Source of the DNA: a bacterium
Lineage (GTDB): Bacteria > Actinomycetota > Acidimicrobiia > Spongiisociales > Spongiisociaceae
Direction of reading: 5' to 3'
Length of the DNA: 64,000 nt
Assembly (NCBI GenBank): GCA_028821235.1
Contig: JAPPGV010000081.1
Coordinates: 109,431 to 173,430, forward strand
The first letter of the stretch is position 1; each line of letters starts with the position of its first letter. The notes beneath the pieces are model-generated. The model was given only the letters and a program-made list of their open reading frames with translations. It searched no databases and had not been told where the DNA came from. The position numbers and the translations under genes are program-made. Below, piece after piece: positions 17,233-36,091 of the stretch.

Positions 17233-17235
17233 CCT

Positions 17236-17272
17236 GCTTGCAGTTTGATGTCTGTTGTGTCATTATGCAAGC
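17236..17272 (+). promoter_or_regulatory. Inverted repeat directly upstream of the vapB start (candidate autoregulatory operator)
   Basis: GCTTGCA (17236-17242) pairs with TGCAAGC (17266-17272), flanking an AT-rich spacer and abutting the ATG at 17273. Confidence 0.4.
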
Positions 17273-17509: not shown

Positions 17510-17925
17510 AGGCAGTTGTCGACTCATCGGTGCTCGTGGCGGCGCTGGTGGATACCACTAACGACGGCCTCTGGGCAGAGGAGGTGATCTCGGAGGGTCC
17601 GCTAGCCGCACCGGAACTGGCCCTGGCAGAGGTCACCAACGTCCTTCGGCGGATGGAACTATCCGTAAGGCTCTCAAGTCTTGAAGCCACGGCTTCTCAT
17701 CGCGACCTGCTCAGACTTGACCTGGACTTGTACCCATTCGCGCCGTTTGCCGACCGTGTATGGGCGTTACGCGCCAACCTGACCTGCTACGACGCCTGGT
17801 ACGTGGCGCTGGCCGAAGCGCTTGACTTCCCACTTGTAACCCTCGACCGCAGGATCGGCCGATCCCCTGGACTGCAGTGTGAGGTGGTTCTTCCACAGAG
17901 GCCAAGACCACGAAGCCCGGCATGA
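17506..17925 (+). CDS. vapC: PIN-domain toxin VapC
   Basis: 139 aa; VVDSSVLVAAL N-terminal acidic motif and CYDAWYVALAE, typical of PIN. Confidence 0.85.
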   Translation: MKAVVDSSVLVAALVDTTNDGLWAEEVISEGPLAAPELALAEVTNVLRRMELSVRLSSLEATASHRDLLRLDLDLYPFAPFADRVWALRANLTCYDAWYVALAEALDFPLVTLDRRIGRSPGLQCEVVLPQRPRPRSPA

Positions 17926-24900: not shown

Positions 24901-25282
24901 GCGCGAAACCGTGGATGGTGAAGATCTGGGCGCGATCGAAGTGGGTCAGAGCCTCCTCGAGCCGTTCCGAGTATTTCCCCTGCCGGCCGGGGTCGGCGTC
25001 GAGCAGGGCGCTGACGTGGTCGTCGACCGGCCCGACATGTGAACCGCGGAGAGCACTGAGGGTGGTGACGATCCGGCGCCTGACCCGGTCTTTGAGCTCG
25101 GCGGTGGCAGCCCTGGTGAAGGTGACCACGAGGATGCGCTCGAGTGGAAGCCCTTCCTCGGCCACCAGGCGGGTGACCACGGCCGCGATCGTGAACGTCT
25201 TGCCGGTACCGGCGCTCGCCTCGATCACCGTGCGGCCGCCGGCGATCGGCGCGTAGGGGTCGTAACGACCGATCTCGGTCAT
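21980..25282 (-). CDS. recB: Exodeoxyribonuclease V beta subunit RecB (helicase-nuclease)
   Basis: UvrD-like motif ASAGTGKTF and a C-terminal PD-(D/E)xK nuclease (VMDFKSN). Start at the ATG at 25282 (MTEIGRYDPY...), overlapping the recC stop (ATGA). Confidence 0.9.
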   Translation of the reverse strand: MTEIGRYDPYAPIAGGRTVIEASAGTGKTFTIAAVVTRLVAEEGLPLERILVVTFTRAATAELKDRVRRRIVTTLSALRGSHVGPVDDHVSALLDADPGRQGKYSERLEEALTHFDRAQIFTIHGFALRLLEKLGFRSRLSGDMEPREIDELLLRRAASDLVVGRFAVPRASDRFDQVTQEHLAQIGKVVVTIPDARITPAPASADGLARVRAEMARDMKSVLSRRLWAEGMVTFDDTLVEARDALNEERVGAGARDLLRRRYSIALVDEAQDTDPIQWQILRAVFDESRLVVIGDPKQSIYAFRGADIESYLSAVEDPSGHRTLATNWRSDGPLIDALDALLAGATFGDDRIGYRRVQPSERNRTARIRGVRGALEIRRFSDDFPLPRQQYRPFFYVREAREAVASDVASEVVRLLDHEVWLEGNDGEERRLEPGDIAVLCRTGRQVGTIRDALAAASVPSVVARTGSVFATPAAEHWRRFLLAIERPSRADYLRLAATTPLVGKDLPEVARLEGDTILDLQQHFLRWQGLLHDRGVPAMFADIDRTTGLTARILSRFEGERELTDLNHIAEEMHAAWRRGRIGSLVVWIEVAMDEAARNAEANVEDVESRQRRLDTDAAAVQVLTVHAAKGLEYPVVMAPYLWDIPRIKPMIPVFHDPEPAPEGQPRRRVIDVGGPTSPGFESHREAAMDEDAAEEGRLLYVALTRARHRLVVWWIENTQYSAKTKLHRLLSRGDDADRGIERLIEASWGTISQTILSRPQPTVPYTGEQRTPGRLDRASLDRSLDYFWRRVSFTSLSPDRPLGGEADTMEEPDRVDEPADAGEPGGAGGGLLMDDLPRGPRFGSLVHRIFQNVPFDSPDLSAAIGSELAHLTRHASWDFETDAFVGGMTAAMRTPLGPGDDALSLRDLDPGRTLKEVSFELPLRTSASTTSLRDIAAVVLERLDEDDPHRGYFPRLRDLEPHRFRGFLTGEIDLVTVLPGRRGARYVVMDFKSNTLPAAGELPASTDYGPGPLVASMHHGNYVLQALLYQVALHRYLEWRLPGYRPSVHLGGSMYLFVRGMIGPDTPVMDGERCGVARWSPPSQAVVAVSDLFAGRR

Positions 25283-28200
25283 AGCGACTTCTCCACCAGC
25301 AGCGGGAGGATCGGCCCCCACAGCCTCCGGGCGAGGTCCGGGAAGGAACTCCCCTCTAGGGCGGACATGGTCCCCAGGTGCGGGAACAGGAACTCGTTGG
25401 CCGGATCCTTGGCCTCCGGGGAGAAACGGTCCGTCTCCCACGCCTTCTCGGCCTGTTTGCGGGCGCTTCCGAGATCTCCGCCCACCTTCATCTGCCAGTT
25501 GAAGGCCGTTTCGCAGGGCAACGGCATGGGGGCGGTAAGCCCTTCGACGTACAGGTCGACGAGGCCCGACAGCAGACGCTCCGCCCGGTGCCGGCGGCGC
25601 GCCGCGTCACCGCGGATCGGTCCGATCTTCACGCTCCGGAGCTTGTCGCCCCGCAGGTGGCGACCGAGCAGCAACCCTTGCCAGGAGCGGTGCGGGTCCA
25701 GCGCGGACAGGAAGACCATCTGGAGGAAGGCTCTCAGGCGTTGCTTACCCTTGAGCCTCGACGGGGTGACCATGTCCGCCCGGGAGGCGCCTGGATCGGC
25801 CGTTATCACGCCCTCGACCGTGCGCCCGCCCACCCGTACCGCTCCGGCGAACTGCTCGTGCCGCTCCGGGTCGTACCCCACTTCCGTGGCGGCCTCCCAC
25901 AGTTCGAACGCCCGCTGCCGGGCCCGGTCGAGACCTGCCCGCCCGAGGTCGCCGGGGGGCACGGTGTCGCCGGCTCGCTGATGGGCTTCGAGCAACTCGA
26001 TCGGGTGACCCGACAGCAGTCCGGCGAGGAAGCGGTCGGTGACCTGCCACTCCTCCAAGGGGCCGAGTTCGGTGGGCACGGTGTCGTCCGGGATCTCTCC
26101 CTGGCGCGGGATCAGGAAGCCGAGCCTGCTGCGGATGAACTCGCGGGCGGGATGCTCGAGAAAGCGGGCCAAGTCCGCGAGCCGGATCTCCGAGAAGACG
26201 TCGTCCTCGGGGGCGGGCAACAGGAGATGGGGCGCCTCCCCACCGGTGCGATGCTGGACGGCCAGCGACCCCTGGAACTGCATGGGGTCGAACCCCCAGG
26301 GTCCGGACACACCGAGACTTCCCGAGACGAAGTTGGTCTCGCTGAATGCTTGCAGAGGATGGTGGGTCCGGAGGCTCTCGAGACCGGCCTCCCCCGCCAT
26401 GCCGGACAGCACGTCCGCCAACTCGGCGATCGGGACCGCCGGCGGATACTCGGCGTTGGTCAGAGGGTCACGGCCCGAGTACGTGACGATCAGGTGGTCC
26501 CCGGCCGCCATGACCGCATCCAGGAGGAGCTGGCGGTCCTCGGCGCCGCGGTCGGAGTCACCGATGATCTCGTTGTCAACCAGCAGGTCGTCGCCGTCGG
26601 CCCGGCTGCTTCTGGGGAAGCGCCGGTCGTCCATACCGAGCAGGCACACCACCCGGTAGGGCACCGAACGCATCGGAACCAGCGTGCAGACCGTGATGTC
26701 CCCGGTCCTGAAATGCAGGGGGCTCGGCACATCCTCCGACCAGTAGTCCACCACCAACCGGGCTTCCGCAGGATCGAGCAGTGGATCGTTACCGCCGGCC
26801 TCCACCCCCGGGAAGCTCTCCTCGAGCAGGCGCTCCAACTGGCCCCACTGCCACTGGTCGTCCCACGCGGGTGCCGCCAGGAGGCGTACGGCCGCGGCGA
26901 TGGCCGGGCCCCACTCGGAGTAAGGCCGAGGCTCGCCGAGAAGCTCCCGGACCGTGACGATCCGGTCCATGATCTGGGCCAATAGCCCGATCGGCAAAGC
27001 CTCCTGCCCCTCGGCCCCGTCGAGGGGGGCGATCGCGCCGACCACGCGGACGCTGCTGTCCGCGTAGAAGACGCCGGAGAGAGCCCGGTCGAGCCCGCGC
27101 CGCCAGGTGTGGTCCCCCACCCGGCCGGCGTCCCACCGGGCGCGGTGGTCGGCATCGAGGCCCCACCGCACGTTGGTGTCCTCGATCACCGCGGCGATCG
27201 CGTCGGCCGTCTCCTCGTCGAAGCCGAACAGTCGCCGCACCACCGGCATCGCCACCAGCTCGCGGACCGTGCCCGCTTCGAGGCGGTCGCAGGCCAGGTC
27301 GAGGACGATTGCGGCGAACCGGACCAGCGGGTTGGTGGCGGCGGGCGCCCGGTCGGCGATCCGGAGGCGCAGGTCAGGCAGGGCATCCGCGCCGGTATCG
27401 GGTTCGCCGCCACCGGCATGGCCGAGGAACACCGCTTCCAGGAGAGGGGCGAAGGTGCCGAGGTCCGGCGTCATGATGACGACATCGCGCGGTTCCAGCG
27501 TGGCGTCGGCCGCGAGAGCGTGAAGGATGGCGTCGCGAAGGACCTCTACCTGCCGGCGGGCGCCGTAGCAGACGTGGACCTGGACCGACCGGTCTCCGTC
27601 AGCGCCGCCGACCGCGGCAGCGCAGTTGGCGGGAAGGGCGTTGGAGCGGATGTCCTGCTGGAGCCGCCTGAGCAGGGTGGCGGCCGCGGCGGCCGCTGCG
27701 CCTCCGGATGGCCCGCTCGCATGGTCCCGGCTCGCCAGGACCAACTGGAGTTCACGGCTCTCCTGCGCCCAGGAGCGCAGCAGCGGATGCCGAGGCAGGT
27801 GCGCCGTGGGGTCGGACGCCCTTCCCGTTTCGGCACCGACCACGTCCCGTTCCGCAAGGACCGCAGTGTCCTGCCACAGGACGGGGGACGGATGCAACAG
27901 GTGCAGGTGTACATCGCGAGTAGCGGCCAGCGCCTCGAACACCTCGACATCCATCGGGTCCACCGAGGTGAGCCCGTACACGAAGATCCGCTCCGGCAGA
28001 GCCACATCCAGCACACCACTCCGGATCGGCTCCAGGGCCGAAGGGATCAGCTCCGCCAGGCCGGGCGTCCCTATCCGTGCCCGGACCAGCCGCCACAGGC
28101 GCGCCTGCCAGACATCCGCCTCGGGAAGGGCCCCTCCATCGGGTCCGGCATCCTCCCCCTCCATCCAGGCCCGTACCATCTCGGGCCGGCGGCGGGCGTA

Positions 28201-28647
28201 GCGGGTGAACAGTCCGGCGATCTTGCGGGCCGCCCGGAGGCGCTGGCTGTTGCCGAGCGCATCGACTGCATTCGGGGCGTCGATGAAGCGGGCCAGTAGC
28301 CACATCCACGGCTCATCGAGATGATCGTCCACCACCGAGACCACGGTGCGGGTGAGAGCGGGTCCCTCCCAGGCATCCAGCGCCGAGGCCAGCTCGGGAA
28401 CCGCTCTCAGCACGTCCCGGACGAGGCGACGCGGGGAGGGGAACCCAATGTTGGCGCACACGCCGCCGCCGGACGTCCGATCGGCCAATTCAGAGGCGAT
28501 CCGCTGGGTGAGCCAGCGCTCGATACCGCGGGTCGGCACGGCCACCACTTCCTGCGCGAAGGGATCCGCCGGGGGTGACGCCAGCATCTCGCACAACCCG
28601 CCCACCAGCTCGTCGGGATGCGACCCGACGTGGATCAGCAACGCCAC
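25279..28647 (-). CDS. recC: Exodeoxyribonuclease V gamma subunit RecC
   Basis: 1122 aa with a RecC-like N-terminus (MALLIHVGSHPDELVGGLCEML...VVAVPTRGIERWLTQRIA). First gene of the recCBD operon. Confidence 0.88.
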   Translation of the reverse strand: MALLIHVGSHPDELVGGLCEMLASPPADPFAQEVVAVPTRGIERWLTQRIASELADRTSGGGVCANIGFPSPRRLVRDVLRAVPELASALDAWEGPALTRTVVSVVDDHLDEPWMWLLARFIDAPNAVDALGNSQRLRAARKIAGLFTRYARRRPEMVRAWMEGEDAGPDGGALPEADVWQARLWRLVRARIGTPGLAELIPSALEPIRSGVLDVALPERIFVYGLTSVDPMDVEVFEALAATRDVHLHLLHPSPVLWQDTAVLAERDVVGAETGRASDPTAHLPRHPLLRSWAQESRELQLVLASRDHASGPSGGAAAAAAATLLRRLQQDIRSNALPANCAAAVGGADGDRSVQVHVCYGARRQVEVLRDAILHALAADATLEPRDVVIMTPDLGTFAPLLEAVFLGHAGGGEPDTGADALPDLRLRIADRAPAATNPLVRFAAIVLDLACDRLEAGTVRELVAMPVVRRLFGFDEETADAIAAVIEDTNVRWGLDADHRARWDAGRVGDHTWRRGLDRALSGVFYADSSVRVVGAIAPLDGAEGQEALPIGLLAQIMDRIVTVRELLGEPRPYSEWGPAIAAAVRLLAAPAWDDQWQWGQLERLLEESFPGVEAGGNDPLLDPAEARLVVDYWSEDVPSPLHFRTGDITVCTLVPMRSVPYRVVCLLGMDDRRFPRSSRADGDDLLVDNEIIGDSDRGAEDRQLLLDAVMAAGDHLIVTYSGRDPLTNAEYPPAVPIAELADVLSGMAGEAGLESLRTHHPLQAFSETNFVSGSLGVSGPWGFDPMQFQGSLAVQHRTGGEAPHLLLPAPEDDVFSEIRLADLARFLEHPAREFIRSRLGFLIPRQGEIPDDTVPTELGPLEEWQVTDRFLAGLLSGHPIELLEAHQRAGDTVPPGDLGRAGLDRARQRAFELWEAATEVGYDPERHEQFAGAVRVGGRTVEGVITADPGASRADMVTPSRLKGKQRLRAFLQMVFLSALDPHRSWQGLLLGRHLRGDKLRSVKIGPIRGDAARRRHRAERLLSGLVDLYVEGLTAPMPLPCETAFNWQMKVGGDLGSARKQAEKAWETDRFSPEAKDPANEFLFPHLGTMSALEGSSFPDLARRLWGPILPLLVEKSL

Positions 28648-28803: not shown

Positions 28804-30306
28804 CTAGCTGCCGTGGGGCGCCACCTGTACCTTGGCGGGCATCCGGTCCAGCGAGCGCTCGACTACGGCATCTGCCAGGCCGGCAAATATGCGCTTGTGG
28901 ATGGGCCACAACGCGTACCAGTAGAGGAGGCCCAGAGCACCTGCCGGGTGGAAGTACGCGGCGGTGACCATGCGTGACCCGTCCGCTTCGGGCAGCACCT
29001 CGAACTCGAGGATTGCGGTGCCGGGGAGGCGCATCTCCGCCAGGAGCGTCAGGCGGCGACCCGGCTCGATAGCCACCACCCGCCAGAAGTCGACCGCATC
29101 GCCCACTCGCAACCGGGTCGGATGGCGACGACCCCGGCGCCTACCGACTCCCCCCACCAAGCGATCCAGGATGCCCCGCAGGTTCCACAACGGGTTGGCG
29201 TAATACCAGCCGTTGGTCCCGCCGATGGACGATACGACCTCCCAGACGGTCTCCGGATCGGCTTCGCACACGCGCTCGACCCGCTCGCTGCGGCTGTAGA
29301 AGGAGACGTCCGAGCGATAGTCGCGCATAGCGAAGGAGCCTTCCGTCCAGCGCGCCGGCATCTCGGCATCCTGCTCGGCCTCGAGGGCCGCCCGCACCGC
29401 CTCTTCATAGGTGTGGAGAGGGAGAGGAATCGAGGTGGCCAGGTCGGCATTCGGATCGACGACCAGGTCGTGCCTGAGGCCGTCTATGAGCGGTCTGGCA
29501 ACGCTCGTAGGCACGGCGGTGACCAGGTTCAGCCAGTAGGAGGAGAGGCGAGGGGTGAGGACGGGTACCGGCACGATCAGGAGCCGCTTGCCGATCACCC
29601 TGGCGAAGCCGGTGAGCAGATCCCGGTAGCGCAAGGCCTCGGCGCCTCCGACGTCGTGGATCGGGCTTCCGGACCCTCCCGTCTCCGGAAGCCGGAGCAG
29701 GTACTCGATCAGGTCAGCCAGGGCGATCGGCTGGGTCATGGAGTCGACCCACCTGGGCGTCACCATCACGGGCAGGTGGTACACGAGGTCACGGATGACC
29801 TCGAAGGCTGCCGAGCCCGGCCCCACCACTATCCCGGCTCGGATCTCTATAACCGGCACCGAGCCCGATCGGAGCAAATCGCCGGTCTCCCGCCGGGAGT
29901 CGAGGTGTGCCGAGGCCGCCTCCCGCGGCTGCAACCCGCCCAGGTAGATGATGCGGCCCACCCGGGCGGTCGCGGCAGCATCCCGAACATGGGTCGCCGC
30001 CCGGCGGTCCAGTTCCGGAAAGTCCTTCCCCGATGCCATCGAGTGGATCAGGTAGTAGACAAGCTCGATCCCCTCGAATGCCTGCTCCAGCGACTTAGGA
30101 TCGAGAGCGTCCGCGCGAACCGTCTCCACGCCCTCCCACCCGCGGTCCGCCAGAGCCTCCGGCCGGCGCCCGGCAGCCCGAACCTCATGCCCCCGCTCCA
30201 CCAGCCGCGGGATCAGATGGCTCCCCACATACCCCGAGGCGCCTAAGACCAGCACCCGTGCCACCGGATCCTCCTTACAGCGGTCAGACCAAGCACCGCC
30301 CTCCAT
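28804..30306 (-). CDS. NAD(P)H-binding SDR/NmrA-like domain fused to a DUF2867 (SRPBCC-like) domain
   Basis: VLVLGASGYVGSHL Rossmann motif. The C-terminal WYYANPLWNLRGILDRLVGGVG...FWRVV is typical of DUF2867. Confidence 0.75.
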   Translation of the reverse strand: MEGGAWSDRCKEDPVARVLVLGASGYVGSHLIPRLVERGHEVRAAGRRPEALADRGWEGVETVRADALDPKSLEQAFEGIELVYYLIHSMASGKDFPELDRRAATHVRDAAATARVGRIIYLGGLQPREAASAHLDSRRETGDLLRSGSVPVIEIRAGIVVGPGSAAFEVIRDLVYHLPVMVTPRWVDSMTQPIALADLIEYLLRLPETGGSGSPIHDVGGAEALRYRDLLTGFARVIGKRLLIVPVPVLTPRLSSYWLNLVTAVPTSVARPLIDGLRHDLVVDPNADLATSIPLPLHTYEEAVRAALEAEQDAEMPARWTEGSFAMRDYRSDVSFYSRSERVERVCEADPETVWEVVSSIGGTNGWYYANPLWNLRGILDRLVGGVGRRRGRRHPTRLRVGDAVDFWRVVAIEPGRRLTLLAEMRLPGTAILEFEVLPEADGSRMVTAAYFHPAGALGLLYWYALWPIHKRIFAGLADAVVERSLDRMPAKVQVAPHGS

Positions 30307-30326: not shown

Positions 30327-31172
30327 ATGGCCGCGCGGCTTCTAGCCAGACACCGACCTGGACGGCCGATGGACCTCGCGCGCAGACAGGGGACCGGACG
30401 TTACGATTCGAGTAGTGCAAGGACTCGCCGCCCCCGGAGCCCGTTAGTGGCGCTCTCGATCGTCACGTGGAACGTCCAGTGGGCCACGCCCCGCTCGCGT
30501 GCCCCGCACCTTCTGGACCGCATCGATCGCCATGCTCCTGAGGTGATCTGTCTGACCGAGACCCACCACGACCTGCTGTCTCAACGCGGTCACAGCATCT
30601 GCTCCCAGCCCGACTACGGCTATCGGATCACGGATCGCCGGAAGGTGCTGCTTTGGTCAAGGGAGCCCTGGGTGAAAGTCGATTACGCGGGGAACGACGG
30701 ATTACCACCCGGACGGTTCGTGTCCGGTTCCACGCGCACGTCGCTTGGCGACGTCACGGTCGTAGGGGTCTGCATTCCCTGGTTCGGGTCACGGACCGAG
30801 GCGCGGCGTGGTGACAGACGAAAGAAACCCTGGGAGGACCATGGTCGCTTCCTGGACGGACTCCCCCAGGTGCTCGAACGGATCTCGGACAAGCGGGTCA
30901 TCGTGATGGGTGACTTCAACCAGAAAATCGGGCCAGGCAGCCGCGCGCCGGCCAAACTCCGGAGCGCCCTGCGGGAAGCCTTTCCGCCGGGCATGCGGAT
31001 CGTGACCTCGGATATCGCCTTCGATGGACGCTCCTCCATCGACCACATCGCCCTGAGCGCCGATATAGCCGTCGACTCCATGTCGTCGCTCAGCAACCTC
31101 CGCGAAGGGAGAAAGCTGTCGGACCACTTCGGCGTGGCCGCGCACGTATCCGCCCGCGGCCAGGCAACATAG
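30327..31172 (+). CDS. Endonuclease/exonuclease/phosphatase (EEP) family protein
   Basis: EEP motifs in order: TWNVQW, ICLTETH, VMGDFNQ, SIDHIA, LSDHFGV. The true start is possibly the GTG at 30447 (VALSIVTWNV). G+C is visibly lower than in flanking genes. Confidence 0.8.
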   Translation: MAARLLARHRPGRPMDLARRQGTGRYDSSSARTRRPRSPLVALSIVTWNVQWATPRSRAPHLLDRIDRHAPEVICLTETHHDLLSQRGHSICSQPDYGYRITDRRKVLLWSREPWVKVDYAGNDGLPPGRFVSGSTRTSLGDVTVVGVCIPWFGSRTEARRGDRRKKPWEDHGRFLDGLPQVLERISDKRVIVMGDFNQKIGPGSRAPAKLRSALREAFPPGMRIVTSDIAFDGRSSIDHIALSADIAVDSMSSLSNLREGRKLSDHFGVAAHVSARGQAT

Positions 31173-31247
31173 GGCGGGGCTGCGCGATCTGGCGAGATTC
31201 GGGTGTTCTGGCACTGGTGTCGGGATCTGAATCGGGCGATCAGGCCG

Positions 31248-31997
31248 CTATGGGGAACGCGTCGGGCCCTTCGCCCGGCTTACCCGCGACCAAAGAGGAT
31301 CGTGTATGGGAAAAACGTTGTTCACCTGCAACCAATGCTCACTTGGTTCGGAAGGGTCAGGCGACCACGCCCTCGTGAGGCCAACGGCTAGATAGCAACC
31401 TTCGAGCTGTGGCTCAATCGCACGGACAGCAGCGACCTCCGGTGTGGTGTGATCGTTTTTCCACAACCGGAGGTCCGTCACCTTCAGCGATACATAGCCG
31501 ATGTCCGAGTCGGCGAAAGAGCACCTGATCACAGGCCGGTGCATTTCGATGCGCGACTTGATCCAAGCCTTCCGTATCGGCCCGAGCACACCCAGAGAGG
31601 CACCACCCCTGCCTTCCGGCACCGCGGCAGCTGTTCTGCTGGTCCTTCTCAGGTCCGGGCCGAAGATCTTGCTGAGAGAGGACTTCGCGGCACCCTTGAG
31701 CAGCTTGCGAAATGCATCTCTGTCCAGGACCCGAACCGACCTTGCCTTGTACGGCTCGAACTCTACGTCCTCAAGCGCGGGGCGAGCGGGGCGGGGGGTC
31801 GTAGAACCGAGTTCGACCACCTCCCCTAACGAGAACGGTCCCCCTTCTTCCCCCAGGAGACGCCTGTGAAGTTGCTCGGATGGAATGACAGGTCGTATAT
31901 GTGAACCGCTCCCAGTGAGTCCTGCAACACAGATATACGGGAACTTCATTCGCGTGAGGTGGTTAACCGCTATTTTCATGATGGACCTACAGATCAA
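31248..31997 (-). CDS. Uncharacterised protein, possibly dual-OB-fold-like
   Basis: 249 aa (or start at 31979, MKIAVNH...). The N-terminal pattern KIAVNHLTRM..YICVAGL....HIRPV and the later LGVLGP...IRCSF.D.D.GYVSLKVTDLRLW...CYLAVGLTRAW...HWLQVNNV resemble a family I remember as dual OB-containing proteins. This is from memory only. The gene overlaps or abuts the DUF488 gene. Confidence 0.5.
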   Translation of the reverse strand: MICRSIMKIAVNHLTRMKFPYICVAGLTGSGSHIRPVIPSEQLHRRLLGEEGGPFSLGEVVELGSTTPRPARPALEDVEFEPYKARSVRVLDRDAFRKLLKGAAKSSLSKIFGPDLRRTSRTAAAVPEGRGGASLGVLGPIRKAWIKSRIEMHRPVIRCSFADSDIGYVSLKVTDLRLWKNDHTTPEVAAVRAIEPQLEGCYLAVGLTRAWSPDPSEPSEHWLQVNNVFPIHDPLWSRVSRAKGPTRSP

Positions 31998-33096
31998 CTG
32001 CCCTTATGTTCCGCCACTTTCTGTCCAAGTACTCGACTACCAAGCGACGATGGCAGCGTTCAGCAGTAGGCTCGCTGCACAGAAGAGCCACTCGTCTCTC
32101 GGCGAAAAGCGCTCGAGGGATCTCACTCTCGACTGAACGTTCCGACATAAGGTCGAGAAAGTCAGACTCGTATACATCCCAGGCCTTCTCACCGCCCCGG
32201 TAGGCTTTGAGTAGTTCCTTCGTAGGCGCCAACAAGGGTTCATGAACATAGTCGACACCGACCAGCACCCTTAGGAAGTAGCGGAGATCCTCGCGCTTGG
32301 CAAAACCAGCCAACTGTGATGTGTTGTTAACACGGACATCCACGAGCCGCTCAATTCTGTTGTCCTGCAGCTTCGTGAAGAATTCCTCCGCGGACTTTCG
32401 CGTGAAGCCGATCGTATAGATGTCCAAGGATGTCTCAGCGATGCTCGGCTGTGGCGATCGATCCAACCGCGGAACCGGTTTGAACGACCTCCATGGGCTC
32501 ACTACCAACTGGCCAAACAGATCCCGCTGCTCGTAGCGCCCGTCTTCCCAGATCCGGAAGTTCCTGACCTGATCACTGTGCTCCGTGGTTGATCCGATCT
32601 GTCCGTCTTCTTCGAGTCCCTTGCACCGGATGTGGCCCACGCGGAGGCCCTTGAGATCCAGGACGCCGGTGATGAGAAGGTAGCGATGGCAATCAGCCGG
32701 ATCCTCTTCACTGCACATCATGGCCACCCGTGAGAACTCGGCTCTTTGAGTAAGCCGCTCGAGACCGGCACGGAATGAGCCACTTTCAGCCATGCGTCCG
32801 TAGAGAACATGACCATCGGAGTCGTAGAACTCTTCGCCGTCGGGCCTACCACCGAGTTCACTCCCTAGGAAGTCGTACTGAATACCCGCCGCAAGCAGTT
32901 CACGCCTTAGCCTCTCGCGGTTGTATTGCGGATTAAACCTTGAGTAGGGCAAGCTCCTGACATCCGCGACGACCTCGATCCGGTTTTGCCGGAGTAGGCC
33001 CATGAAGACGTCAATGGAATGTGTCGAGTGGCCGATGGACAGTATTCCCGGACCGCCCACCCACGTTGGGTCAGGTTCGTTCATGCAGCACCCCAC
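31987..33096 (-). CDS. Tandem DUF488-domain protein (two DUF488 repeats in one polypeptide)
   Basis: Repeat 1: ILSIGHSTHSID...VADVRSLPYSRFNPQY...MMCSEEDPADCHRYLL. Repeat 2: IYTIGFTRKSAEEF...LVDVRVNNTS...LLCSEPTAERCHRRLV. Both carry the DUF488 hallmark C-E-x5-CHR. The likely start is the ATG at 33084. This is the lowest-GC stretch of the window by eye. Confidence 0.75.
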   Translation of the reverse strand: MGCCMNEPDPTWVGGPGILSIGHSTHSIDVFMGLLRQNRIEVVADVRSLPYSRFNPQYNRERLRRELLAAGIQYDFLGSELGGRPDGEEFYDSDGHVLYGRMAESGSFRAGLERLTQRAEFSRVAMMCSEEDPADCHRYLLITGVLDLKGLRVGHIRCKGLEEDGQIGSTTEHSDQVRNFRIWEDGRYEQRDLFGQLVVSPWRSFKPVPRLDRSPQPSIAETSLDIYTIGFTRKSAEEFFTKLQDNRIERLVDVRVNNTSQLAGFAKREDLRYFLRVLVGVDYVHEPLLAPTKELLKAYRGGEKAWDVYESDFLDLMSERSVESEIPRALFAERRVALLCSEPTAERCHRRLVVEYLDRKWRNIRAVDL

Positions 33097-33178: not shown

Positions 33179-33568
33179 TCATCCGGACGGCCAGTGCTGT
33201 ACCTCAAGCTCCGTCATCGGAAAATCAGAGACGTTCGCTGTGGCAAGAGTTGCCCCGATCCCGACAGCCGAAGCAGCTATCAAGCAGTCCGCCTGGTGAA
33301 GAGTGATACCGATCTCGGCGAACTCGCGCCGCCATGCGCCGGCACGCTGAGCTTCGGGAGCACGCAGTGGGGCCAAACGGAGGGCTTGGACCAAGCGCTT
33401 CGCGCTCGACTCCTCCTCCGGGTGGAGACCTCGCCAGATCTCCTCGATCGAGATGACCGACACCCACGGCTCCACACCGCGCCGTCGGAGCCCCCTTACA
33501 CGACCAGCGGCAGACCGCCCCCTGAGGGCATCAATCAGCACTGTGGAGTCGATGAGCAGTCGCGACAA
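33179..33568 (-). CDS. vapC: PIN-domain toxin VapC
   Basis: 129 aa; LLIDSTVLIDAL and QADCLIAASAVGIGATLATANVSDF are PIN motifs. Confidence 0.85.
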   Translation of the reverse strand: MSRLLIDSTVLIDALRGRSAAGRVRGLRRRGVEPWVSVISIEEIWRGLHPEEESSAKRLVQALRLAPLRAPEAQRAGAWRREFAEIGITLHQADCLIAASAVGIGATLATANVSDFPMTELEVQHWPSG

Positions 33569-33570
33569 TC

Positions 33571-33810
33571 TCAGCCGGACCGTCGACGATCCCCCCGCCG
33601 TTGGGACCGAACCCAGTTAGCAGGATCTTCGTCCCATTCATGACCAGTATCCGGGATGGTCCCCAAGGAGGCTTCTATCTCGTCCCATCGACGCTCGTCA
33701 TCAAGCCCACGCTGGATCAGAGCGGCGATGAACGCACTACGACGTCTAGGACCAGCCCGCCGGTCGAGATCGGCCACAAGTTCTTCGTCCAAGGTTATGT
33801 GTAATCTCAT
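33571..33810 (-). CDS. vapB: Ribbon-helix-helix antitoxin (VapB/CopG-like)
   Basis: MRLHITLDEELVADLDRRAGPRRRSAFIAALIQRGL RHH motif. It ends 2 nt before vapC. Confidence 0.8.
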   Translation of the reverse strand: MRLHITLDEELVADLDRRAGPRRRSAFIAALIQRGLDDERRWDEIEASLGTIPDTGHEWDEDPANWVRSQRRGDRRRSG

Positions 33811-33834
33811 GTGCTGTACTATACACACAACGGC

Positions 33835-34908
33835 CTAGTCCTGCCGATCTAGTTTGCGGAAGAAGTCGCGATAGACCGCGTCCCTGTCGACGTCGGTGGC
33901 CTCGCTCATCAGCGGCCGGCCGGGCAGGTGGCGCCACTTAAGATCCTCGTCCAGGGTGGGAGTCGGCACGAATGCGGTCGGCACCCAAGTGGGATCGATC
34001 AGCCATGCGAAGTTGATGAAGTCCCAGCACACCCAGGACTGGCCCGGGAAGGGCTCGACGAGCCGTTGCGCCCGGAGGCGGTTGTGCGTGTACAGGTAGT
34101 GGAGGTAGCTGCCGATCTCGCCACGGCCGTCGACCCACCGCTCCGACTCCGGCAACGACATCACGAGTTGCTCTCCGATGTAGTAGCCCGGCAGGTACAG
34201 GAGCGGCACACCCGAGTCGAAGAGCAGGCGGGAGGCGTGCTGGTCCTGCACCAGGTTCATCGAGGGTGAGTTGCTGAACCTCACGAACGTCGGGTAGCCG
34301 GATGTCCAAGACACCACCATCCGGGTGATGATCTCCGGTTCCATCAGCAGCGCCGCGGCGATGTTGGTAACCGCCCCGATCGCCACGACATGGAGCAGCC
34401 GGTCGTCGTCCGCCATGGCGGCCTCGATGATCCGCCGGGCGCCTTCGCTGTCCACGATGTCGTCGGGTGACTCCATGAACCGGTCGGCGCCCCGGAAGGC
34501 CACCCCGTCGGATGACATGCCGAGGCACCCCATGAGGGTGCCGATCTCGGCGAACGACAGCTCCATACCCTCGGCCGTCGTCTCGAATTCGACTTCCTCG
34601 GGCTCGATTCCGGATGCTCTCAGCCGGTGTAACCAGGCAGCGATATCGTCGACCTCCCCGGCGGTCGAGTCGTCGACGTCCGCCCGAGCCGCCTCCAGGA
34701 GAGGCTCCCTGAAGTAAGCCCGCGAGAACGGAGCGGCGACGATGGCTTCGATGTCCAACCGCTCGGGCGACAGAAGCCCCCAGGTGATGGCGAACTGGTC
34801 ATCGACCTCGTTGGCCGCATCGGTATCGATCAAGACCCGAACCCTGCCGGGTTGCGGCGCCAGCATCTCCATGCGCCGCTCGTCGCTGATGTGCGGGAAC
34901 TGTGTCAT
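33835..34908 (-). CDS. Inosine-uridine-preferring nucleoside hydrolase family protein
   Basis: N-terminal VLIDTDAANEVDDQFAI (DxDxxxDD Ca-binding fingerprint); 357 aa. Confidence 0.8.
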   Translation of the reverse strand: MTQFPHISDERRMEMLAPQPGRVRVLIDTDAANEVDDQFAITWGLLSPERLDIEAIVAAPFSRAYFREPLLEAARADVDDSTAGEVDDIAAWLHRLRASGIEPEEVEFETTAEGMELSFAEIGTLMGCLGMSSDGVAFRGADRFMESPDDIVDSEGARRIIEAAMADDDRLLHVVAIGAVTNIAAALLMEPEIITRMVVSWTSGYPTFVRFSNSPSMNLVQDQHASRLLFDSGVPLLYLPGYYIGEQLVMSLPESERWVDGRGEIGSYLHYLYTHNRLRAQRLVEPFPGQSWVCWDFINFAWLIDPTWVPTAFVPTPTLDEDLKWRHLPGRPLMSEATDVDRDAVYRDFFRKLDRQD

Positions 34909-35000: not shown

Positions 35001-35285
35001 TCATTCCCCGTACAGGCTGATCCGGGCTGCCTCCAACTCCTCTTCGGTGAACGCCCCGTTCTCCTCCTGCCACTCATCGAGCAGTCGGCCGAGGCCCTCC
35101 AGCGCCTCCTGATGCTTCTGAGGATTGTTGTAGAAGTTGTCAGAGTTACTGAGGCTGGCCTGGTGGATCTCCTCCATAGCCGCGGCCGGGTCCGGATCCA
35201 TGTCTGGGTTGGGACCGGCCACAAATATGGCGTAGAGCTTCGGCGCCTCCTCGAGTGCGGGCTCGCTTGCCTGCTTGTTCTCCAT
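35001..35285 (-). CDS. Small acidic hypothetical protein
   Basis: Start taken at MENKQASEP...; 94 aa, rich in Glu and Asp, no recognised motif. Divergent from the Abi_2 gene. Confidence 0.4.
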   Translation of the reverse strand: MENKQASEPALEEAPKLYAIFVAGPNPDMDPDPAAAMEEIHQASLSNSDNFYNNPQKHQEALEGLGRLLDEWQEENGAFTEEELEAARISLYGE

Positions 35286-35407
35286 ACCGGTCAACCTACC
35301 CCATCCTGACACCTCGATGGCGATGGACGGCTCAGAAAGGCGTAACCCCGGCCGTTTGCCGAGGCAGGGACGGTTCCGGGGTCTTCGACGCCTAATGTAC
35401 TCCCGCT

Positions 35408-36091
35408 GTGGGACAGATGTCAAGGGTCAACTACCAGAAGGTCGCCAACCGCCTGACGCGCGACCGGCTCGCCTCTTACCTCAACGCGACCGGGGGCAGC
35501 CTTGGGTATGCCATCGACCTCTACGACTGGAACACCCTGGCGGGCGGTGCCCTGCACGAGGACCTCGGCCGTCTCGAGGTCGTCTTTCGCAATGCGATTG
35601 ACAATGCGCTGATAAGGCACGGGAGGGATCAAGGATGGCAAACGACCTGGTATCGGCGAACAGAACTATTCCCCGGTCAGCTGGCGTCTCGAGCCAGAGT
35701 CGACGTAGACAGGGCTCGCCAACGAGCGACCCAGGGAGGGAGACACCCTGAGGTGCATGGCAAGGTGATCGCCGAACTCGGATTCGGGTTCTGGCGCTAC
35801 CTATGCGAACCGCCGTATCACACTTCGCTATGGGTGCCTGCCCTCACTGCTGCGTTCCCACTACACCCATCGACACCTAACACACGGCGCGTACGGGCTG
35901 AAGTAGCAGATCGTATGCAGCGTCTCCACTTTCTCCGGAACCGGATCGCGCATCACGAGCCGATCCACCGGCGCGACCTGGCTCGCGATCACGCCCAACT
36001 GCTGGAAGTGGTGGGATGGATCTGCTCCGACAGTCGTACCTGGGTCGCCGCGCGAAGCCGAACACCAAGCGTCCTCGCTGCCCGGCCCTGA
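35408..36091 (+). CDS. Abi_2 (AbiD/AbiF-like) abortive-infection family protein with HEPN motif
   Basis: Family-typical N-terminus (RLASYL...GYAIDLYDWNTLAGGALHEDLGRLEVVFRNAIDNAL), ELGFGFWRYL, and a C-terminal HEPN Rx4-6H motif in LHFLRNRIAHHEPI. Confidence 0.75.
   Translation: MGQMSRVNYQKVANRLTRDRLASYLNATGGSLGYAIDLYDWNTLAGGALHEDLGRLEVVFRNAIDNALIRHGRDQGWQTTWYRRTELFPGQLASRARVDVDRARQRATQGGRHPEVHGKVIAELGFGFWRYLCEPPYHTSLWVPALTAAFPLHPSTPNTRRVRAEVADRMQRLHFLRNRIAHHEPIHRRDLARDHAQLLEVVGWICSDSRTWVAARSRTPSVLAARP

What the first reader, a model, noticed from the sequence alone, without database searches (positions are those of the whole stretch)
30327..33096. Lower-GC three-gene island: EEP nuclease, dual-OB-like unknown protein and tandem-DUF488 protein next to VapBC (candidate uncharacterised conflict or nucleic-acid-targeting system)
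Seen in sequence: between the recCBD-linked SDR gene and a VapBC pair, G+C drops visibly (most clearly 31.2-33.1 kb). Three genes sit here. (a) An endonuclease/exonuclease/phosphatase-fold protein with all catalytic motifs intact. (b) A 249-aa protein with no motif I can name securely, whose pattern (YICVAG...HIRPV; LKVTDLRLW; HWLQVNNV) recalls proteins described as dual-OB. (c) A 369-aa protein made of two complete DUF488 repeats, each keeping the C-E-x5-CHR motif. Genes (b) and (c) overlap or abut on the minus strand and so probably form an operon; (a) converges on them. Established: DUF488 has no experimentally defined function, and single-domain versions (YeaO-like) are the norm. Inference: a duplicated DUF488, an OB-type nucleic-acid binder and a phosphodiesterase-fold nuclease, in a compositionally foreign patch flanked by TA and Abi genes, look like a horizontally acquired defence or DNA/RNA-processing module rather than housekeeping.
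Basis: partly seen in the sequence, partly recalled or inferred. Interest (0 to 1): 0.82.

Follow-up and report, generated by a model that had tools for sequence, protein, structure and literature searches.

The report
Conserved DUF488–DUF488–DuOB cassette, fused variant
Two of the three genes form a widespread but untested bacterial cassette (two DUF488 enzymes plus a double-OB nucleic-acid-binding protein, the two enzymes fused here), already catalogued by computation as a probable nucleic-acid-processing or defence module; the neighbouring nuclease gene is an unrelated passenger.

Summary
Window 31.2-33.1 kb is the lowest-GC stretch of the 64 kb. It carries an EEP gene, a dual-OB (DuOB) gene and a tandem-DUF488 gene.

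The functional unit is not the three genes. Of 160 DuOB loci from more than 10 phyla, 134 had enough flanking sequence to judge. In 130 of them the order is N-type DUF488, then DUF488-N3a, then DuOB, on one strand and tightly coupled. No locus outside the window's own lineage has the EEP. That EEP family has its own cassette elsewhere, or sits alone in mobile or defence contexts.

The window's 369-aa protein is a lineage-specific in-frame fusion of the two DUF488 genes. It arose by tandem duplication of their conserved out-of-frame overlap.

Both DUF488 domains keep the CxEx5CHR motif. DuOB keeps about 12 near-invariant polar residues and folds as two OB barrels.

The components are already in Pfam (DuOB, DUF488-N3a). 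The two DUF488 halves match two of the three models of PADLOC's untested candidate PDC-M45.

Evidence for a defence role is mixed. For: low GC, patchy spread, fast divergence in Acidimicrobiia. Against: stable vertical inheritance among metabolic genes in Rubrobacteraceae, and adjacency to RecBCD or RecQ in some lineages.

Verdict: a real, known-by-computation, experimentally uncharacterised module.

The parts
31987..33096 (-). Fused DUF488(N-type)-DUF488-N3a gene. 369 aa from GTG 33096; more likely 365 aa from ATG 33084.
   Evidence: Pfam DUF488 2.9e-46 with two stretches. DUF488-N3a 6e-17 on residues 287-359. PADLOC PDC-M45B 3e-66 on the N half and PDC-M45C 1e-66 on the C half. The same fused gene occurs in independent assemblies L082-L084 and L087. 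AF2 pLDDT 83.8.
32647..33048 (-). N-type DUF488 domain (residues about 17-150), with motif C128-S-E130-EDPAD-C136-H-R138 at 32683-32715.
   Evidence: Pfam DUF488 5e-23 and nothing more specific. The motif is present in 74 of 74 N-type orthologues. 60-70% identical to stand-alone N-type proteins of about 205 aa.
32494..32640 (-). Beta-rich C-terminal extension of the N-type paralogue (residues about 153-201).
   Evidence: AF2 strands 153-161, 167-173, 180-182, 187-191 and 197-201. H155, I156, R157, G160 and F180 are >=90% conserved in orthologues.
32425..32508 (-). Fusion junction: a tandem duplicate of the ancestral overlap between the N-type and C-type genes.
   Evidence: Copy 1 is read in the N frame: SPWRSFKPVPRLDRSPQP, compare L002 SPWRSTRSVSRRSPPP. 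Copy 2 is the old ribosome-binding site plus start codon, now read through as ..AETS-L(TTG)-DIYTIGFT. The DNA aligns to L002 9539-9590. pLDDT is below 50 at residues 214-220.
31990..32427 (-). C-type DUF488 domain (DUF488-N3a subclade; residues about 224-369), with motif C340-S-E342-PTAER-C348-H-R350 at 32047-32079.
   Evidence: Pfam DUF488-N3a 48.5 bits alone against a cutoff of 27. The motif is present in 75 of 77 orthologues.
31248..31979 (-). DuOB (dual-OB) gene, 243 aa. It starts 7 nt after the DUF488 stop codon.
   Evidence: 562 homologues, most carrying PF22557. 1382 50%-identity clusters at E<=1e-3. AF2 pLDDT 93.2, all-beta with two barrels. The best Foldseek matches are tandem-OB ssDNA binders: POT1, TEBP, Teb1, LEF-3. 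Spacing.
30447..31172 (+). EEP-fold nuclease/phosphatase gene (241 aa; longest ORF from 30327). It converges on DuOB and is not part of the conserved cassette.
   Evidence: Pfam Exo_endo_phos 7e-15. 0 of 160 DuOB loci outside this lineage carry a homologue. Different partners elsewhere.
33179..33828 (-). VapC (33179-33568) and RHH antitoxin (33571-33828). Directly upstream on the same strand, 94 nt from the DUF488 start.
   Evidence: PIN 8.7e-11; RHH weak. Present at the same position in L002 at 81-83% identity and in L082 and L087 at 96-98%. Absent from all other DuOB loci, so this neighbour is specific to the lineage.
25279..28647 (-). recC, part of recCBD; context only. In relatives it lies immediately downstream of DuOB.
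   Evidence: In L002 and L008, DuOB is followed by RecC after about 300-400 nt on the same strand. In the window the SDR-DUF2867 gene (28804-30306) and the EEP lie in between.

Best explanation
Window 31248-33096 (minus strand) encodes one copy of a conserved three-component module, here carried on two polypeptides. The components are an N-type DUF488 enzyme, a DUF488-N3a enzyme and a DuOB protein.

Shown:
- The three genes are inherited as a rigid, translationally coupled unit across more than 10 phyla.
- Both DUF488 paralogues keep the full CxEx5CHR motif.
- The two DUF488 genes have fused independently in several lineages, including this one.
- DuOB is a stand-alone two-OB-barrel protein with about 12 near-invariant polar residues.

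Inferred:
- The two DUF488 domains form a heterodimer.
- They carry out cysteine-dependent phosphoryl transfer, as a phosphatase or phosphotransferase of the rhodanese-phosphatase type.
- Their substrate is a terminal phosphate or sugar-phosphate of a single-stranded nucleic acid.
- DuOB holds that end, and may also contribute catalytic residues.

The most likely biological role is an accessory nucleic-acid end-processing or end-modification system used in conflict with mobile elements. A DNA-maintenance role is nearly as plausible.

The adjacent EEP gene, the VapBC pair and the PD-T4-5-like gene are independent tenants of the same variable chromosomal region. They are not components of the module.
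For: Gene order and coupling.
- N-type, then C-type, then DuOB on one strand in 76 of 80 genome loci. The same order holds in 54 of 54 metagenome loci with enough upstream sequence.
- The gap from the C-type stop to the DuOB start codon has a median of 10 nt and is at most 30 nt in 99 of 129 loci.
- The N-type and C-type genes overlap out of frame in 124 of 129 loci.

Active-site conservation and fusion.
- The motif is present in 74 of 74 N-type and 75 of 77 C-type orthologues.
- 75 of the 120 best hits to (c) are fused proteins at 50% identity or less. The window's N half is 60-70% identical to unfused proteins, so its fusion is an independent event.

Folds.
- DUF488 domain-level Foldseek matches: the PTP-fold phosphatase SsoPTP (probability 0.95) and a tetrapyrrole-methylase-like domain.
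- DuOB AF2 model has pLDDT 93. Its best PDB and viral matches are all tandem-OB ssDNA binders.
- Residues T9, C17, R29, E70, D71, S128, D169, R171, R203, H215, Q218 and N220 are >=95% conserved in 257 DuOB sequences.

Hints of a conflict role.
- PADLOC candidate models PDC-M45B and PDC-M45C match at 1e-66. These candidates were derived from genes embedded in BREX, DISARM or type I RM loci (bioRxiv 10.1101/2024.01.29.577857).
- The cassette occurs in only 189 of 185,579 species genomes, scattered over many phyla.
- The cassette has lower GC than its flanks (43 of 68 loci, Wilcoxon p=0.003; all Acidimicrobiia loci).
- Window versus L002: cassette proteins are 54-68% identical while flanking RecC, NH-like and VapC are 82-91%.

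The EEP is excluded.
Against: - No biochemical or genetic data exist for any member. No relative has a solved structure.
- The Foldseek similarities are weak: E about 2e-3 and TM 0.24-0.35 for DuOB; TM about 0.48 for DUF488 against the PTP fold.
- The motif is C-x9-R, not the canonical PTP C-x5-R.
- I could not map the invariant DuOB residues onto the model because no coordinates were available. 'DuOB is catalytic' therefore rests on conservation alone.
- PADLOC component PDC-M45A was not found in the window, in 28 DuOB proteins or in 132 neighbouring ORFs.
- In 15 Rubrobacteraceae species the cassette has fixed metabolic neighbours. It diverges at the same rate as they do, 74-80% against 78-83% identity.
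- Immediate neighbours across phyla are heterogeneous, with no recurring defence gene.
- The cassette carries no obvious toxin or effector.
- No copy was found in 2.9 million viral contigs.
Confidence: 0.45

Rival explanations
1. DNA-maintenance accessory. The cassette processes DNA ends (3' tails, blocked or phosphorylated termini) in cooperation with double-strand-break helicases (RecBCD, RecQ). It is a stably inherited repair factor, not an immune system.
For: - DuOB is directly followed by recC on the same strand in L002 and L008. recC lies within 2.6 kb in L007 and within 2.6 kb in the window.
- A full-length RecQ (DEAD, Helicase_C, Zn-bind, RQC, HRDC, HTH_40) is the immediate neighbour in 9 Planctomycetota loci, in two orientations. 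It is also close in Ktedonobacterales L012 and metagenome locus L126.
- ParAB lies upstream in L086. A ComFC-like gene lies beside an orphan DuOB in L054. ScpB and SMC_N-type genes occur among the neighbours.
- Rubrobacteraceae, a radiation-resistant group by established knowledge, keep the cassette vertically at flank-like rates.
- The structural similarity of DuOB is to proteins that bind ssDNA ends.
Against: - The helicase adjacency is confined to about 3 lineages. No RecC and only one RecQ appear in 80 metagenome loci.
- The cassette occurs in only about 0.1% of species, which is odd for a repair function.
- In Acidimicrobiia it diverges about three times faster than recC.
- The category 'DSB helicase' was chosen after looking at the data.
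Confidence: 0.25
2. Sulfur-relay or other thiol-based nucleic-acid modification. The rhodanese-like DUF488 cysteines and the invariant DuOB Cys17 pass a persulfide (or another group) to a base or backbone position of DNA or RNA held by the OB folds. This would make the cassette a modification system, not an end phosphatase.
For: - Each DUF488 domain has two invariant cysteines, and 99% of 257 DuOB sequences keep Cys17.
- By established knowledge the rhodanese-phosphatase superfamily includes sulfurtransferases.
- One JGI product name reads 'putative nucleic acid modification protein with dual OB domain'.
Against: - No cysteine desulfurase, ATP-pyrophosphatase or SAM enzyme recurs next to the cassette.
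- Domain-level fold matches are to phosphatases, not to rhodaneses.
- No data on modification are available.
Confidence: 0.1
3. RNA-end repair or processing coupled to the VapC toxin. The cassette heals or modifies RNA ends made by the PIN ribonuclease encoded immediately upstream.
For: VapB-VapC-DUF488-DuOB lie on one strand with gaps of 2, 94 and 7 nt. The VapBC position is conserved in L002, L082 and L087. OB folds also bind RNA.
Against: No VapBC homologue sits beside the cassette in any of the other roughly 150 loci. No ligase or kinase partner is present. VapBC pairs are common autonomous elements.
Confidence: 0.07
4. One reading: the EEP nuclease, DuOB and tandem DUF488 together form a single three-gene defence system.
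For: The three genes are adjacent in the window and in same-lineage contigs L082-L084 and L087. All three lie in the lower-GC region.
Against: - The EEP is absent from 160 of 160 other DuOB loci.
- The EEP is on the opposite strand.
- In L090 it sits on the other side of a lone N-type DUF488.
- At 66-67% identity it is the middle gene of a different cassette, a 358-aa unknown plus EEP plus an EEP-like protein (L088, L089).
- In L091 it is solitary among HNH, PLD, AbiEii and IS genes.
- Between the window and L082 the EEP is 78% identical while the cassette is 97-99%.
Confidence: 0.03

Closest known systems
DUF488-N3a / DuOB gene neighbourhood. Sources: Pfam PF22751, PF22752 and PF22557. [quoted passage not shown] That paper is not held in the library.
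   Same: The domain families and the pairing are the same. The C half scores as DUF488-N3a. Homologues of (b) score as DuOB. The predicted role is nucleic-acid end processing or modification in conflicts.
   Different: The two DUF488 genes are fused here. The partner DUF488 is a generic, motif-intact DUF488, not the 'inactive' N3i subclade. The window's DuOB itself falls below the Pfam model. This kind of system is a computational prediction only; nothing about it has been tested.
PADLOC candidate PDC-M45, one of 145 untested 'phage defence candidates' found by guilt-by-embedding (bioRxiv 10.1101/2024.01.29.577857).
   Same: Components B and C match the two halves of (c) at 3e-66 and 1e-66.
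   Different: Component A was not found in the window, in 28 DuOB proteins or in 132 neighbouring ORFs. No DuOB matches any PADLOC model. The defining cassette is FAM_01974>>FAM_00888>>FAM_01897, and I could not recover what family A is.
Single-domain DUF488 proteins, YeaO-like (PF04343).
   Same: Same domain and same CxEx5CHR motif.
   Different: Here two diverged paralogues, 27-31% identical to each other, are obligately paired and coupled to a DuOB gene. The N-type paralogue has an extra beta-rich extension.
PTP-fold / rhodanese-phosphatase enzymes, for example SsoPTP (PDB 7mpc, 2i6i).
   Same: A Rossmann-like alpha/beta domain with a nucleophilic cysteine and an arginine in a loop between a strand and a helix. 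Foldseek probability 0.87-0.95 at domain level.
   Different: No sequence similarity. The loop is C-x9-R with a second cysteine. TM is only about 0.45-0.48.
Tandem-OB ssDNA end binders and SSBs: POT1, Oxytricha TEBP-alpha, Teb1, baculovirus LEF-3.
   Same: Two consecutive OB barrels. These are the best Foldseek matches in both libraries.
   Different: E is only about 1e-3, TM 0.22-0.37 and identity 7-12%. DuOB carries an invariant set of Cys, His, Asp, Glu and Arg residues that is not typical of passive ssDNA binders. This is an analogy, not membership.
ExoIII/APE1-type EEP nucleases (this comparison concerns gene (a) only).
   Same: The EEP fold and its catalytic motifs are intact.
   Different: Far below the Xth equivalog cutoffs: 27 bits against 99. 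It belongs to a distinct family of about 242 aa that is 63-85% conserved across Acidimicrobiia and Chloroflexota and has its own cassette partners.

Membership tests
DUF488 (PF04343) | HMM score above the gathering cutoff of 22.2 bits | tested here: met
   157.5 bits for the whole protein. The N half alone scores 82.5 bits and the C half 78.9 bits.
DUF488 (PF04343) | Conserved C-x-E-x5-C-H-R motif | tested here: met
   C128/E130/C136/H137/R138 and C340/E342/C348/H349/R350 are present. The motif is kept in 74 of 74 and 75 of 77 orthologues.
DUF488-N3a (PF22751) | HMM score above the cutoff of 27 bits | tested here: met
   The C half scores 48.5 bits alone and 62.5 bits within the whole protein. 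The N half scores only 17.4 bits, so only the C-terminal domain is a member.
DUF488-N3i (PF22752, 'inactive' subclade) | HMM score above the cutoff of 27 bits, and loss of the catalytic motif | tested here: not met
   The best score is 14.2 bits, on the C half. Both halves keep the motif.
DuOB (PF22557) | HMM score above the cutoff of 27 bits | tested here: inconclusive
   The window protein gives no hit even at E<=10. It matches P0004 at E=5.8e-76 and 55% identity, and P0004 scores 48.7 bits. Most of the 562 homologues carry PF22557. Membership therefore holds by transitive homology, not by the model itself.
DuOB (PF22557) | Two OB-fold barrels in one domain | tested here: met
   The AF2 model (pLDDT 93.2) is nearly all beta, in two blocks of strands. 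The best Foldseek matches are all tandem-OB proteins, though weakly.
DUF488 + DUF488-N3a + DuOB conserved neighbourhood | The three components are adjacent, on one strand, in the order N-type, C-type, DuOB | tested here: met
   The window has this order, with the first two genes fused and a 7-nt spacer before DuOB. The order holds in 130 of 134 evaluable loci.
PADLOC PDC-M45 | All three component models (A, B, C) present | tested here: not met
   B matches at 3.2e-66 and C at 1.4e-66. A is absent from the 8 proteins of the region, from 28 DuOB proteins and from 132 neighbouring ORFs.
Experimentally validated anti-phage defence systems | A match to a validated system model, or demonstrated protection | tested here: not met
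   No validated PADLOC model matches (a), (b) or (c). The PDC systems are untested by their authors' own statement. Protection itself cannot be tested with these tools.
Defence-island resident | Recurrent co-location with known defence genes across lineages | tested here: inconclusive
   In the window's lineage: VapBC, a PD-T4-5-like gene, and HsdR, DUF6119 or HEPN_Swt1 in sister strains. The immediate neighbours of 76 loci are heterogeneous; the helicase-type PADLOC hits are housekeeping RecQ. Rubrobacteraceae loci are metabolic. No background-corrected enrichment test was possible.
PTP / rhodanese-phosphatase superfamily | Canonical C-x5-R P-loop on a Rossmann-like fold | tested here: inconclusive
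   Fold-level matches to SsoPTP have probability 0.87-0.95 and TM about 0.45. The loop is C-x9-R, and a profile search finds no PDB relative. That the superfamily includes DUF488 is recalled from the literature, not tested here.
POT1/TEBP telomere-end-binding proteins | Homology, or a close structural match to the tandem OB DNA-binding domain | tested here: not met
   Foldseek E=1.9e-3, TM 0.22-0.30, 7-9% identity. No sequence match. The resemblance is in architecture only.
EEP superfamily (PF03372), gene (a) | HMM score above the cutoff of 24.5 bits, with catalytic Asn, Glu, Asp-x-Asn, Asp and Asp-His | tested here: met
   55.7 bits over the full-length profile. The motifs are read in the translation.
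Exodeoxyribonuclease III (TIGR00633 / TIGR00195) | Equivalog score cutoffs of 99 and 182 bits | tested here: not met
   27.3 and 22.2 bits.
VapBC type II toxin-antitoxin (neighbour) | A PIN toxin preceded by a small DNA-binding antitoxin | tested here: met
   PIN scores 42.9 bits against a cutoff of 23.6. The antitoxin shows weak RHH/MazE-like matches. The two genes are 2 nt apart. The NCBIfam VapC equivalog cutoff is not reached (36 bits against 80).

The most novel reading that the evidence does not exclude
The DUF488-DUF488-DuOB cassette is a previously unrecognised bacterial machine that works on nucleic-acid ends. A POT1-like double-OB subunit captures a single-stranded DNA (or RNA) terminus. 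A heterodimeric cysteine phosphotransferase then chemically caps, uncaps or tags that terminus. The output is read by, or protects against, end-dependent machines such as RecBCD and RecQ. That would be a new biochemical principle, shared between DNA maintenance and anti-phage conflict.
Probability: 0.15. Interest if true: 0.8.

Novelty: new member of a known kind. Interest (0 to 1): 0.42.

Why it matters
DUF488 is a large family with no assigned activity, and DuOB has never been studied experimentally. This work narrows what needs testing.

- The unit is three components, not the EEP.
- Both DUF488 active sites are conserved.
- The two DUF488 proteins very probably form a heterodimer, because independent fusions exist.
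- DuOB looks more like an enzyme or a specific end-reader than a passive SSB.
- The cassette exists in a cultured organism, Rubrobacter marinus.

If the activity turns out to be a new kind of DNA or RNA end chemistry, it would assign a function to two orphan families. It might also add a new defence or repair principle. If it turns out to be an ordinary phosphatase, the finding is routine annotation.

Tried and rejected
1. EEP as a component. Rejected on synteny.
2. Programmed -1 ribosomal frameshifting as the reason for the conserved -1-frame overlap of the two DUF488 genes. Only 8 of 124 loci have a canonical X_XXY_YYZ heptamer in the last 150 nt of the N frame. Rejected. The overlap is better explained by coupling plus the sequence constraint from the C-type N-terminus.
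3. The fusion as an assembly or sequencing artefact. Rejected, because the same fused ORF occurs in JGI, ENA and Logan assemblies.
4. The 207-aa and 273-aa genes called upstream in public assemblies as extra partners. These are shadow ORFs lying over VapBC.
5. DuOB as PADLOC PDC-M45A. 0 of 28 DuOB proteins hit any PADLOC model. The supplement of the PADLOC candidate paper did not reveal what family A is.
6. Phage origin. There is no DuOB in 2.9 million viral contigs and no PHROG hit for DuOB or the EEP. Some phage proteins do contain DUF488.
7. Mobile-element borders. No tRNA, integrase, flanking repeats, Rfam elements or convincing terminators were found.
8. Sequence searches against the PDB gave nothing for any of the three proteins.
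9. Literature. Full-text searches for DUF488 found no functional study. The key comparative-genomics paper could not be read.
10. Domain fusions of DuOB as a clue to function. Nearly all of the best 150 representatives are stand-alone proteins. A few carry a short HTH-like tail with no Pfam match.

Full report
**1. Observation.** They are an EEP-fold gene on the plus strand (30327/30447-31172), a gene of 249/243 aa (31248-31997/31979) and a gene of 369/365 aa (31987-33096/33084), the last two on the minus strand. The 1-kb GC of the window averages 0.677 (sd 0.031). Its minimum, 0.558, falls at 31901, inside the tandem-DUF488 gene. GC3 is 0.66 for both minus-strand genes. It is 0.83-0.93 for RecC, the SDR gene, the nucleoside-hydrolase-like gene and the ATP synthase genes. 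The EEP is only mildly deviant (GC3 0.79). Pfam confirms the EEP at 7e-15 over the full profile. It also confirms two DUF488 domains at 2.9e-46, the second of the DUF488-N3a subclade. Both CxEx5CHR motifs are present. Homologue alignments place the start of (b) at ATG 31979, 7 nt after the stop codon of (c). The start of (c) is probably ATG 33084 and that of the EEP 30447.

**2. Identity of (b).** The protein has no direct Pfam, NCBIfam, PADLOC or PHROG hit. It does have 562 homologues, and most of them carry PF22557, 'Dual OB-containing domain' (DuOB). One has the JGI product name 'putative nucleic acid modification protein with dual OB domain'. P0004 is 55% identical to (b) and scores 48.7 bits on the DuOB model. 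An exhaustive profile search finds 1382 clusters at 50% identity. Nearly all are stand-alone proteins of about 235 aa that begin exactly at the conserved Met1. The AF2 model is confident (pLDDT 93.2, pTM 0.90) and nearly all beta. Its best matches are all tandem-OB ssDNA binders, but only weakly. In the PDB these are POT1, Oxytricha TEBP-alpha and Teb1 at E about 2e-3 to 7e-3, then LEF-3 at 1.7e-2, with TM 0.23-0.35. Among viral models they are LEF-3 and phage SSBs. In 257 DuOB sequences, T9, C17, R29, E70, D71, S128, D169, R171, R203, H215, Q218 and N220 are >=95% conserved. That pattern suits an active site or a specific ligand pocket better than passive ssDNA coating.

**3. The conserved unit.** A scan of one genome per species (185,579 genomes) found 189 DuOB relatives. 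The 80 best come from Acidimicrobiia, Rubrobacteria, Planctomycetota, Chloroflexota, Thermodesulfobacteriota, Nitrospirota, Acidobacteriota, Armatimonadota, Dormibacterota, Calditrichota and Proteobacteria. I searched their six-frame ORFs with the window's proteins. In 76 of 80 loci an orthologue of the N half of (c), an orthologue of the C half and DuOB lie in that order on one strand. Two of the four exceptions are cut by contig ends. The other two, L023 and L054, are orphan DuOB genes. A metagenome scan gave the same order in 54 of 54 loci with enough upstream sequence. The gap between the C-type stop and the DuOB start has a median of 10 nt. Both paralogues keep the complete motif, in 74 of 74 and 75 of 77 orthologues. 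Neither is therefore a degenerate partner. Pfam's 'inactive' N3i model does not match either half.

**4. The EEP is not part of it.** No EEP homologue lies within 8-10 kb of DuOB in any of the 160 loci. It accompanies the cassette only in contigs of the window's own lineage (L082-L084, L087). In a related Acidimicrobiia MAG (L090) the order is RecC, SDR, a lone N-type DUF488, EEP, VapC, VapB, NH-like. There the cassette is degraded and the EEP is on the other side. The EEP family is large, with 1500 hits, and is 63-85% identical across Acidimicrobiia, Dehalococcoidia and other Chloroflexota. In L088 and L089 it is the middle gene of a different cassette: a 358-aa protein with no Pfam match, the EEP, and a second EEP-like protein of about 300 aa. 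In L091 it is solitary among HNH, PLD-like, AbiEii, IstB and T5orf172 genes. Between the window and L082 the EEP is 78% identical while the cassette is 97-99%. It is an independent, mobile tenant of the same region.

**5. The fusion.** The two DUF488 genes are separate in all 130 other loci. In 124 of 129 loci the C-type gene is in the -1 frame of the N-type gene, and the N-type stop lies 61 nt (61 loci) or 85 nt (14 loci) past the C-type start. In the window this overlap segment has been tandemly duplicated. Copy 1 is read in the N frame (SPWRSFKPVPRLDRSPQP; L002 has SPWRSTRSVSRRSPPP). Copy 2 is the former ribosome-binding site and start codon, now read through as ...AETS-L-DIYTIGFT. The result is one in-frame protein that keeps both the N-type tail and the full C-type N-terminus. 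The same fused gene appears in independent JGI, ENA and Logan assemblies, so it is real. Fused tandem-DUF488 proteins are also common elsewhere: 75 of the 120 best hits are fused, at 50% identity or less. The window's N half is 60-70% identical to unfused proteins, so fusion happened more than once. One distant fused gene is followed by DuOB (L086) and another is not (L085). Repeated fusion is classical evidence that the two paralogues act as a heterodimer. Programmed frameshifting is not a good explanation of the overlap, since only 8 of 124 loci have a slippery heptamer.

**6. Structure of (c).** The AF2 model (pLDDT 83.8) shows two alpha/beta domains joined by a beta-rich extension of the N-type paralogue and a disordered linker. 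Whole-chain Foldseek hits are uninformative: they are to tandem Rossmann-like proteins such as KaiC, with TM about 0.2. Domain-level hits include the PTP-fold phosphatase SsoPTP (probability 0.87-0.95) and a tetrapyrrole-methylase-like domain. This fits the published placement of DUF488 in the rhodanese-phosphatase superfamily. I recall that placement from Burroughs & Aravind 2023 and could not read the paper here. No relative has a solved structure.

**7. Context and evolution.** In the window's family (sponge-associated Acidimicrobiia; L002 is labelled Candidatus Spongiisociaceae) the arrangement is NH-like ... VapB-VapC-DUF488-DUF488-DuOB-RecC-RecB-RecD. It is conserved in L002 and partly in L008. 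The window's lineage has additionally inserted the SDR-DUF2867 gene and the EEP between DuOB and recC. Against L002 the flanks are 81-91% identical (RecC 82, NH-like 91, VapC 83, VapB 81), but the cassette proteins are only 54-68%. The cassette has lower GC than its flanks in every Acidimicrobiia locus. Over all loci it is lower in 43 of 68, by 0.02 on average (p=0.003). These features, and the presence of the cassette in only about 0.1% of species, suit an accessory and possibly conflict-related module.

Other evidence points the other way. Fifteen Rubrobacteraceae species share the same metabolic flanking genes. Their cassette proteins diverge no faster than those flanks, 74-80% against 78-83% identity. 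The immediate neighbours of 76 loci fall into 505 mostly singleton clusters, with no recurrent defence gene. No copy is found in 2.9 million viral contigs.

A recurrent neighbour does exist in some lineages. A full-length RecQ abuts the cassette in 9 Planctomycetota loci, in two orientations. It is also near in one Ktedonobacterales locus and one metagenome locus. Together with the recCBD adjacency this is suggestive. It is confined to about three lineages, and I chose the category after seeing the data.

**8. Relation to catalogued systems.** PADLOC's candidate models PDC-M45B and PDC-M45C match the two halves of (c) at about 1e-66, and PDC-M19A matches more weakly. The PDC set comprises 145 untested candidates. 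They were derived from genes embedded in BREX, DISARM and type I RM loci (bioRxiv 10.1101/2024.01.29.577857). PDC-M45 is the cassette FAM_01974>>FAM_00888>>FAM_01897. Component A was not detected in the window, in 28 DuOB proteins or in 132 neighbouring ORFs. Formal membership is therefore not met, and what A is remains unknown. The Pfam families DuOB, DUF488-N3a and DUF488-N3i show that curators have already recognised this association.

**9. Mechanism.** The following is shown: a rigid, translationally coupled triad; two intact Cys/His/Arg motifs; recurrent fusion of the two enzymes; and a two-OB protein with an invariant polar constellation. The following is inferred. A DUF488 heterodimer performs cysteine-dependent phosphoryl transfer, or less likely sulfur transfer. 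Its target is the terminus of a single-stranded nucleic acid presented by DuOB. I rate the biochemical outline at roughly 0.55. For the biological role I give about 0.45 to conflict with mobile elements, 0.25 to DNA maintenance linked to RecBCD or RecQ, and 0.1 or less to each of a thiol-relay modification and VapC-linked RNA-end processing.

**10. Verdict.** The unit was mis-delimited, because the EEP is a bystander. The 'duplicated DUF488' is a fusion of two old paralogues. The kind of system is already catalogued computationally, so this is a new member (a fused form) of a known but uncharacterised kind. Interest is moderate. The value lies in the sharpened, testable definition of the module, not in a new discovery.

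Noticed in passing
L002-L171 (for example L002 9554-9614); window 32425-32508: The N-type and C-type DUF488 genes overlap out of frame in 124 of 129 loci across phyla. The C-type gene is in the -1 frame, and the N-type stop is exactly 61 nt (61 loci) or 85 nt (14 loci) past the C-type start. In the window this overlap was resolved by tandem duplication, which created the fusion. Why such a long overlap is so stable is unexplained. Canonical frameshift signals are absent.
   Followed up: yes
L088 3909-6701; L089 2038-4784: The EEP family of gene (a) is usually the middle gene of another conserved cassette: a 358-aa protein with no Pfam match, the EEP (242 aa), and a second weakly EEP-like protein of about 300 aa. 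Neighbours include IS110, HEPN/NTase, PIN and AAA_33 genes. The family is 63-85% identical across Acidimicrobiia and Chloroflexota, which suggests recent inter-phylum transfer, possibly among sponge symbionts.
   Followed up: partly
window 30447-31172 compared with L082 10808-11533: Between the window and same-lineage contig L082 the EEP is only 78% identical. The adjacent DUF488/DuOB/VapBC genes are 96-99% and RecC and SDR are 91%. The region is a mosaic, pointing to recombination or allelic replacement.
   Followed up: no
L002 8140-8961; L082 8177-8961: Public gene calls place 273-aa, or 207-aa plus 54-aa, opposite-strand 'genes' over what is in fact a VapB-VapC pair that is 81-98% identical to the window's. 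These are shadow-ORF miscalls in high-GC MAGs.
   Followed up: yes
window 35001-36091: There is a second lower-GC patch between the conserved NH-like gene and the ATP synthase operon. It holds a 140-aa protein with no family match and a PD-T4-5-like/Abi-like protein (PADLOC 5.5e-16). In sister strains this slot holds HsdR + YgjP-like + DUF6119, or HEPN_Swt1 + DUF5343. It looks like a variable hotspot for defence-type genes.
   Followed up: partly
window 16483-17925: Another low-GC patch (about 0.60-0.63) holds a phosphonate-binding-protein-like ORF and a second PIN-domain (VapC-like) gene at 17506-17925.
   Followed up: no
P0368, P0389, P0416, P0489 (DuOB relatives): A few DuOB proteins carry a C-terminal tail of 60-160 aa. 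The tail has a shared motif, W-(T/S)-x2-E-E ... G-R-x3-I-x-S-R-L-x-x-L-(G/E)-L, that looks like a small helix-turn-helix. It has no significant Pfam match.
   Followed up: partly
L018, L026, L027, L029, L039, L055 (downstream); L074, L076, L079 (upstream, divergent); L012; L126: A full-length RecQ helicase is the immediate neighbour of the cassette in Planctomycetota, in two orientations. It is nearby in a Ktedonobacterales contig and in one metagenome contig. In Acidimicrobiia the neighbour is recCBD instead.
   Followed up: partly
L054 4395-6459; L023 9314-10702: Orphan DuOB genes without DUF488 partners exist. One sits directly after a ComFC-like gene (double zinc ribbon plus phosphoribosyltransferase). 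The other sits after a TrkA gene.
   Followed up: no
L090 6168-7729: In a related Acidimicrobiia MAG only the N-type DUF488 remains, next to SDR and RecC, with the EEP on its other side. This is apparent decay of the cassette at the same locus.
   Followed up: no
window 31248-31979: The Pfam DuOB model misses the window's protein, and also P0001 and P0003, entirely, even though they are clear family members. PADLOC has no model that detects any of 28 DuOB proteins. Automated annotation will under-call this component.
   Followed up: yes
window 33835-34908: The nucleoside-hydrolase-like gene next to VapB is unusually conserved, 89-96% identical in relatives whose RecC is 65-91%. It matches the IU_nuc_hydro model over only part of the profile and lies far below the equivalog cutoffs. 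It is a conserved core gene of unclear specificity.
   Followed up: no
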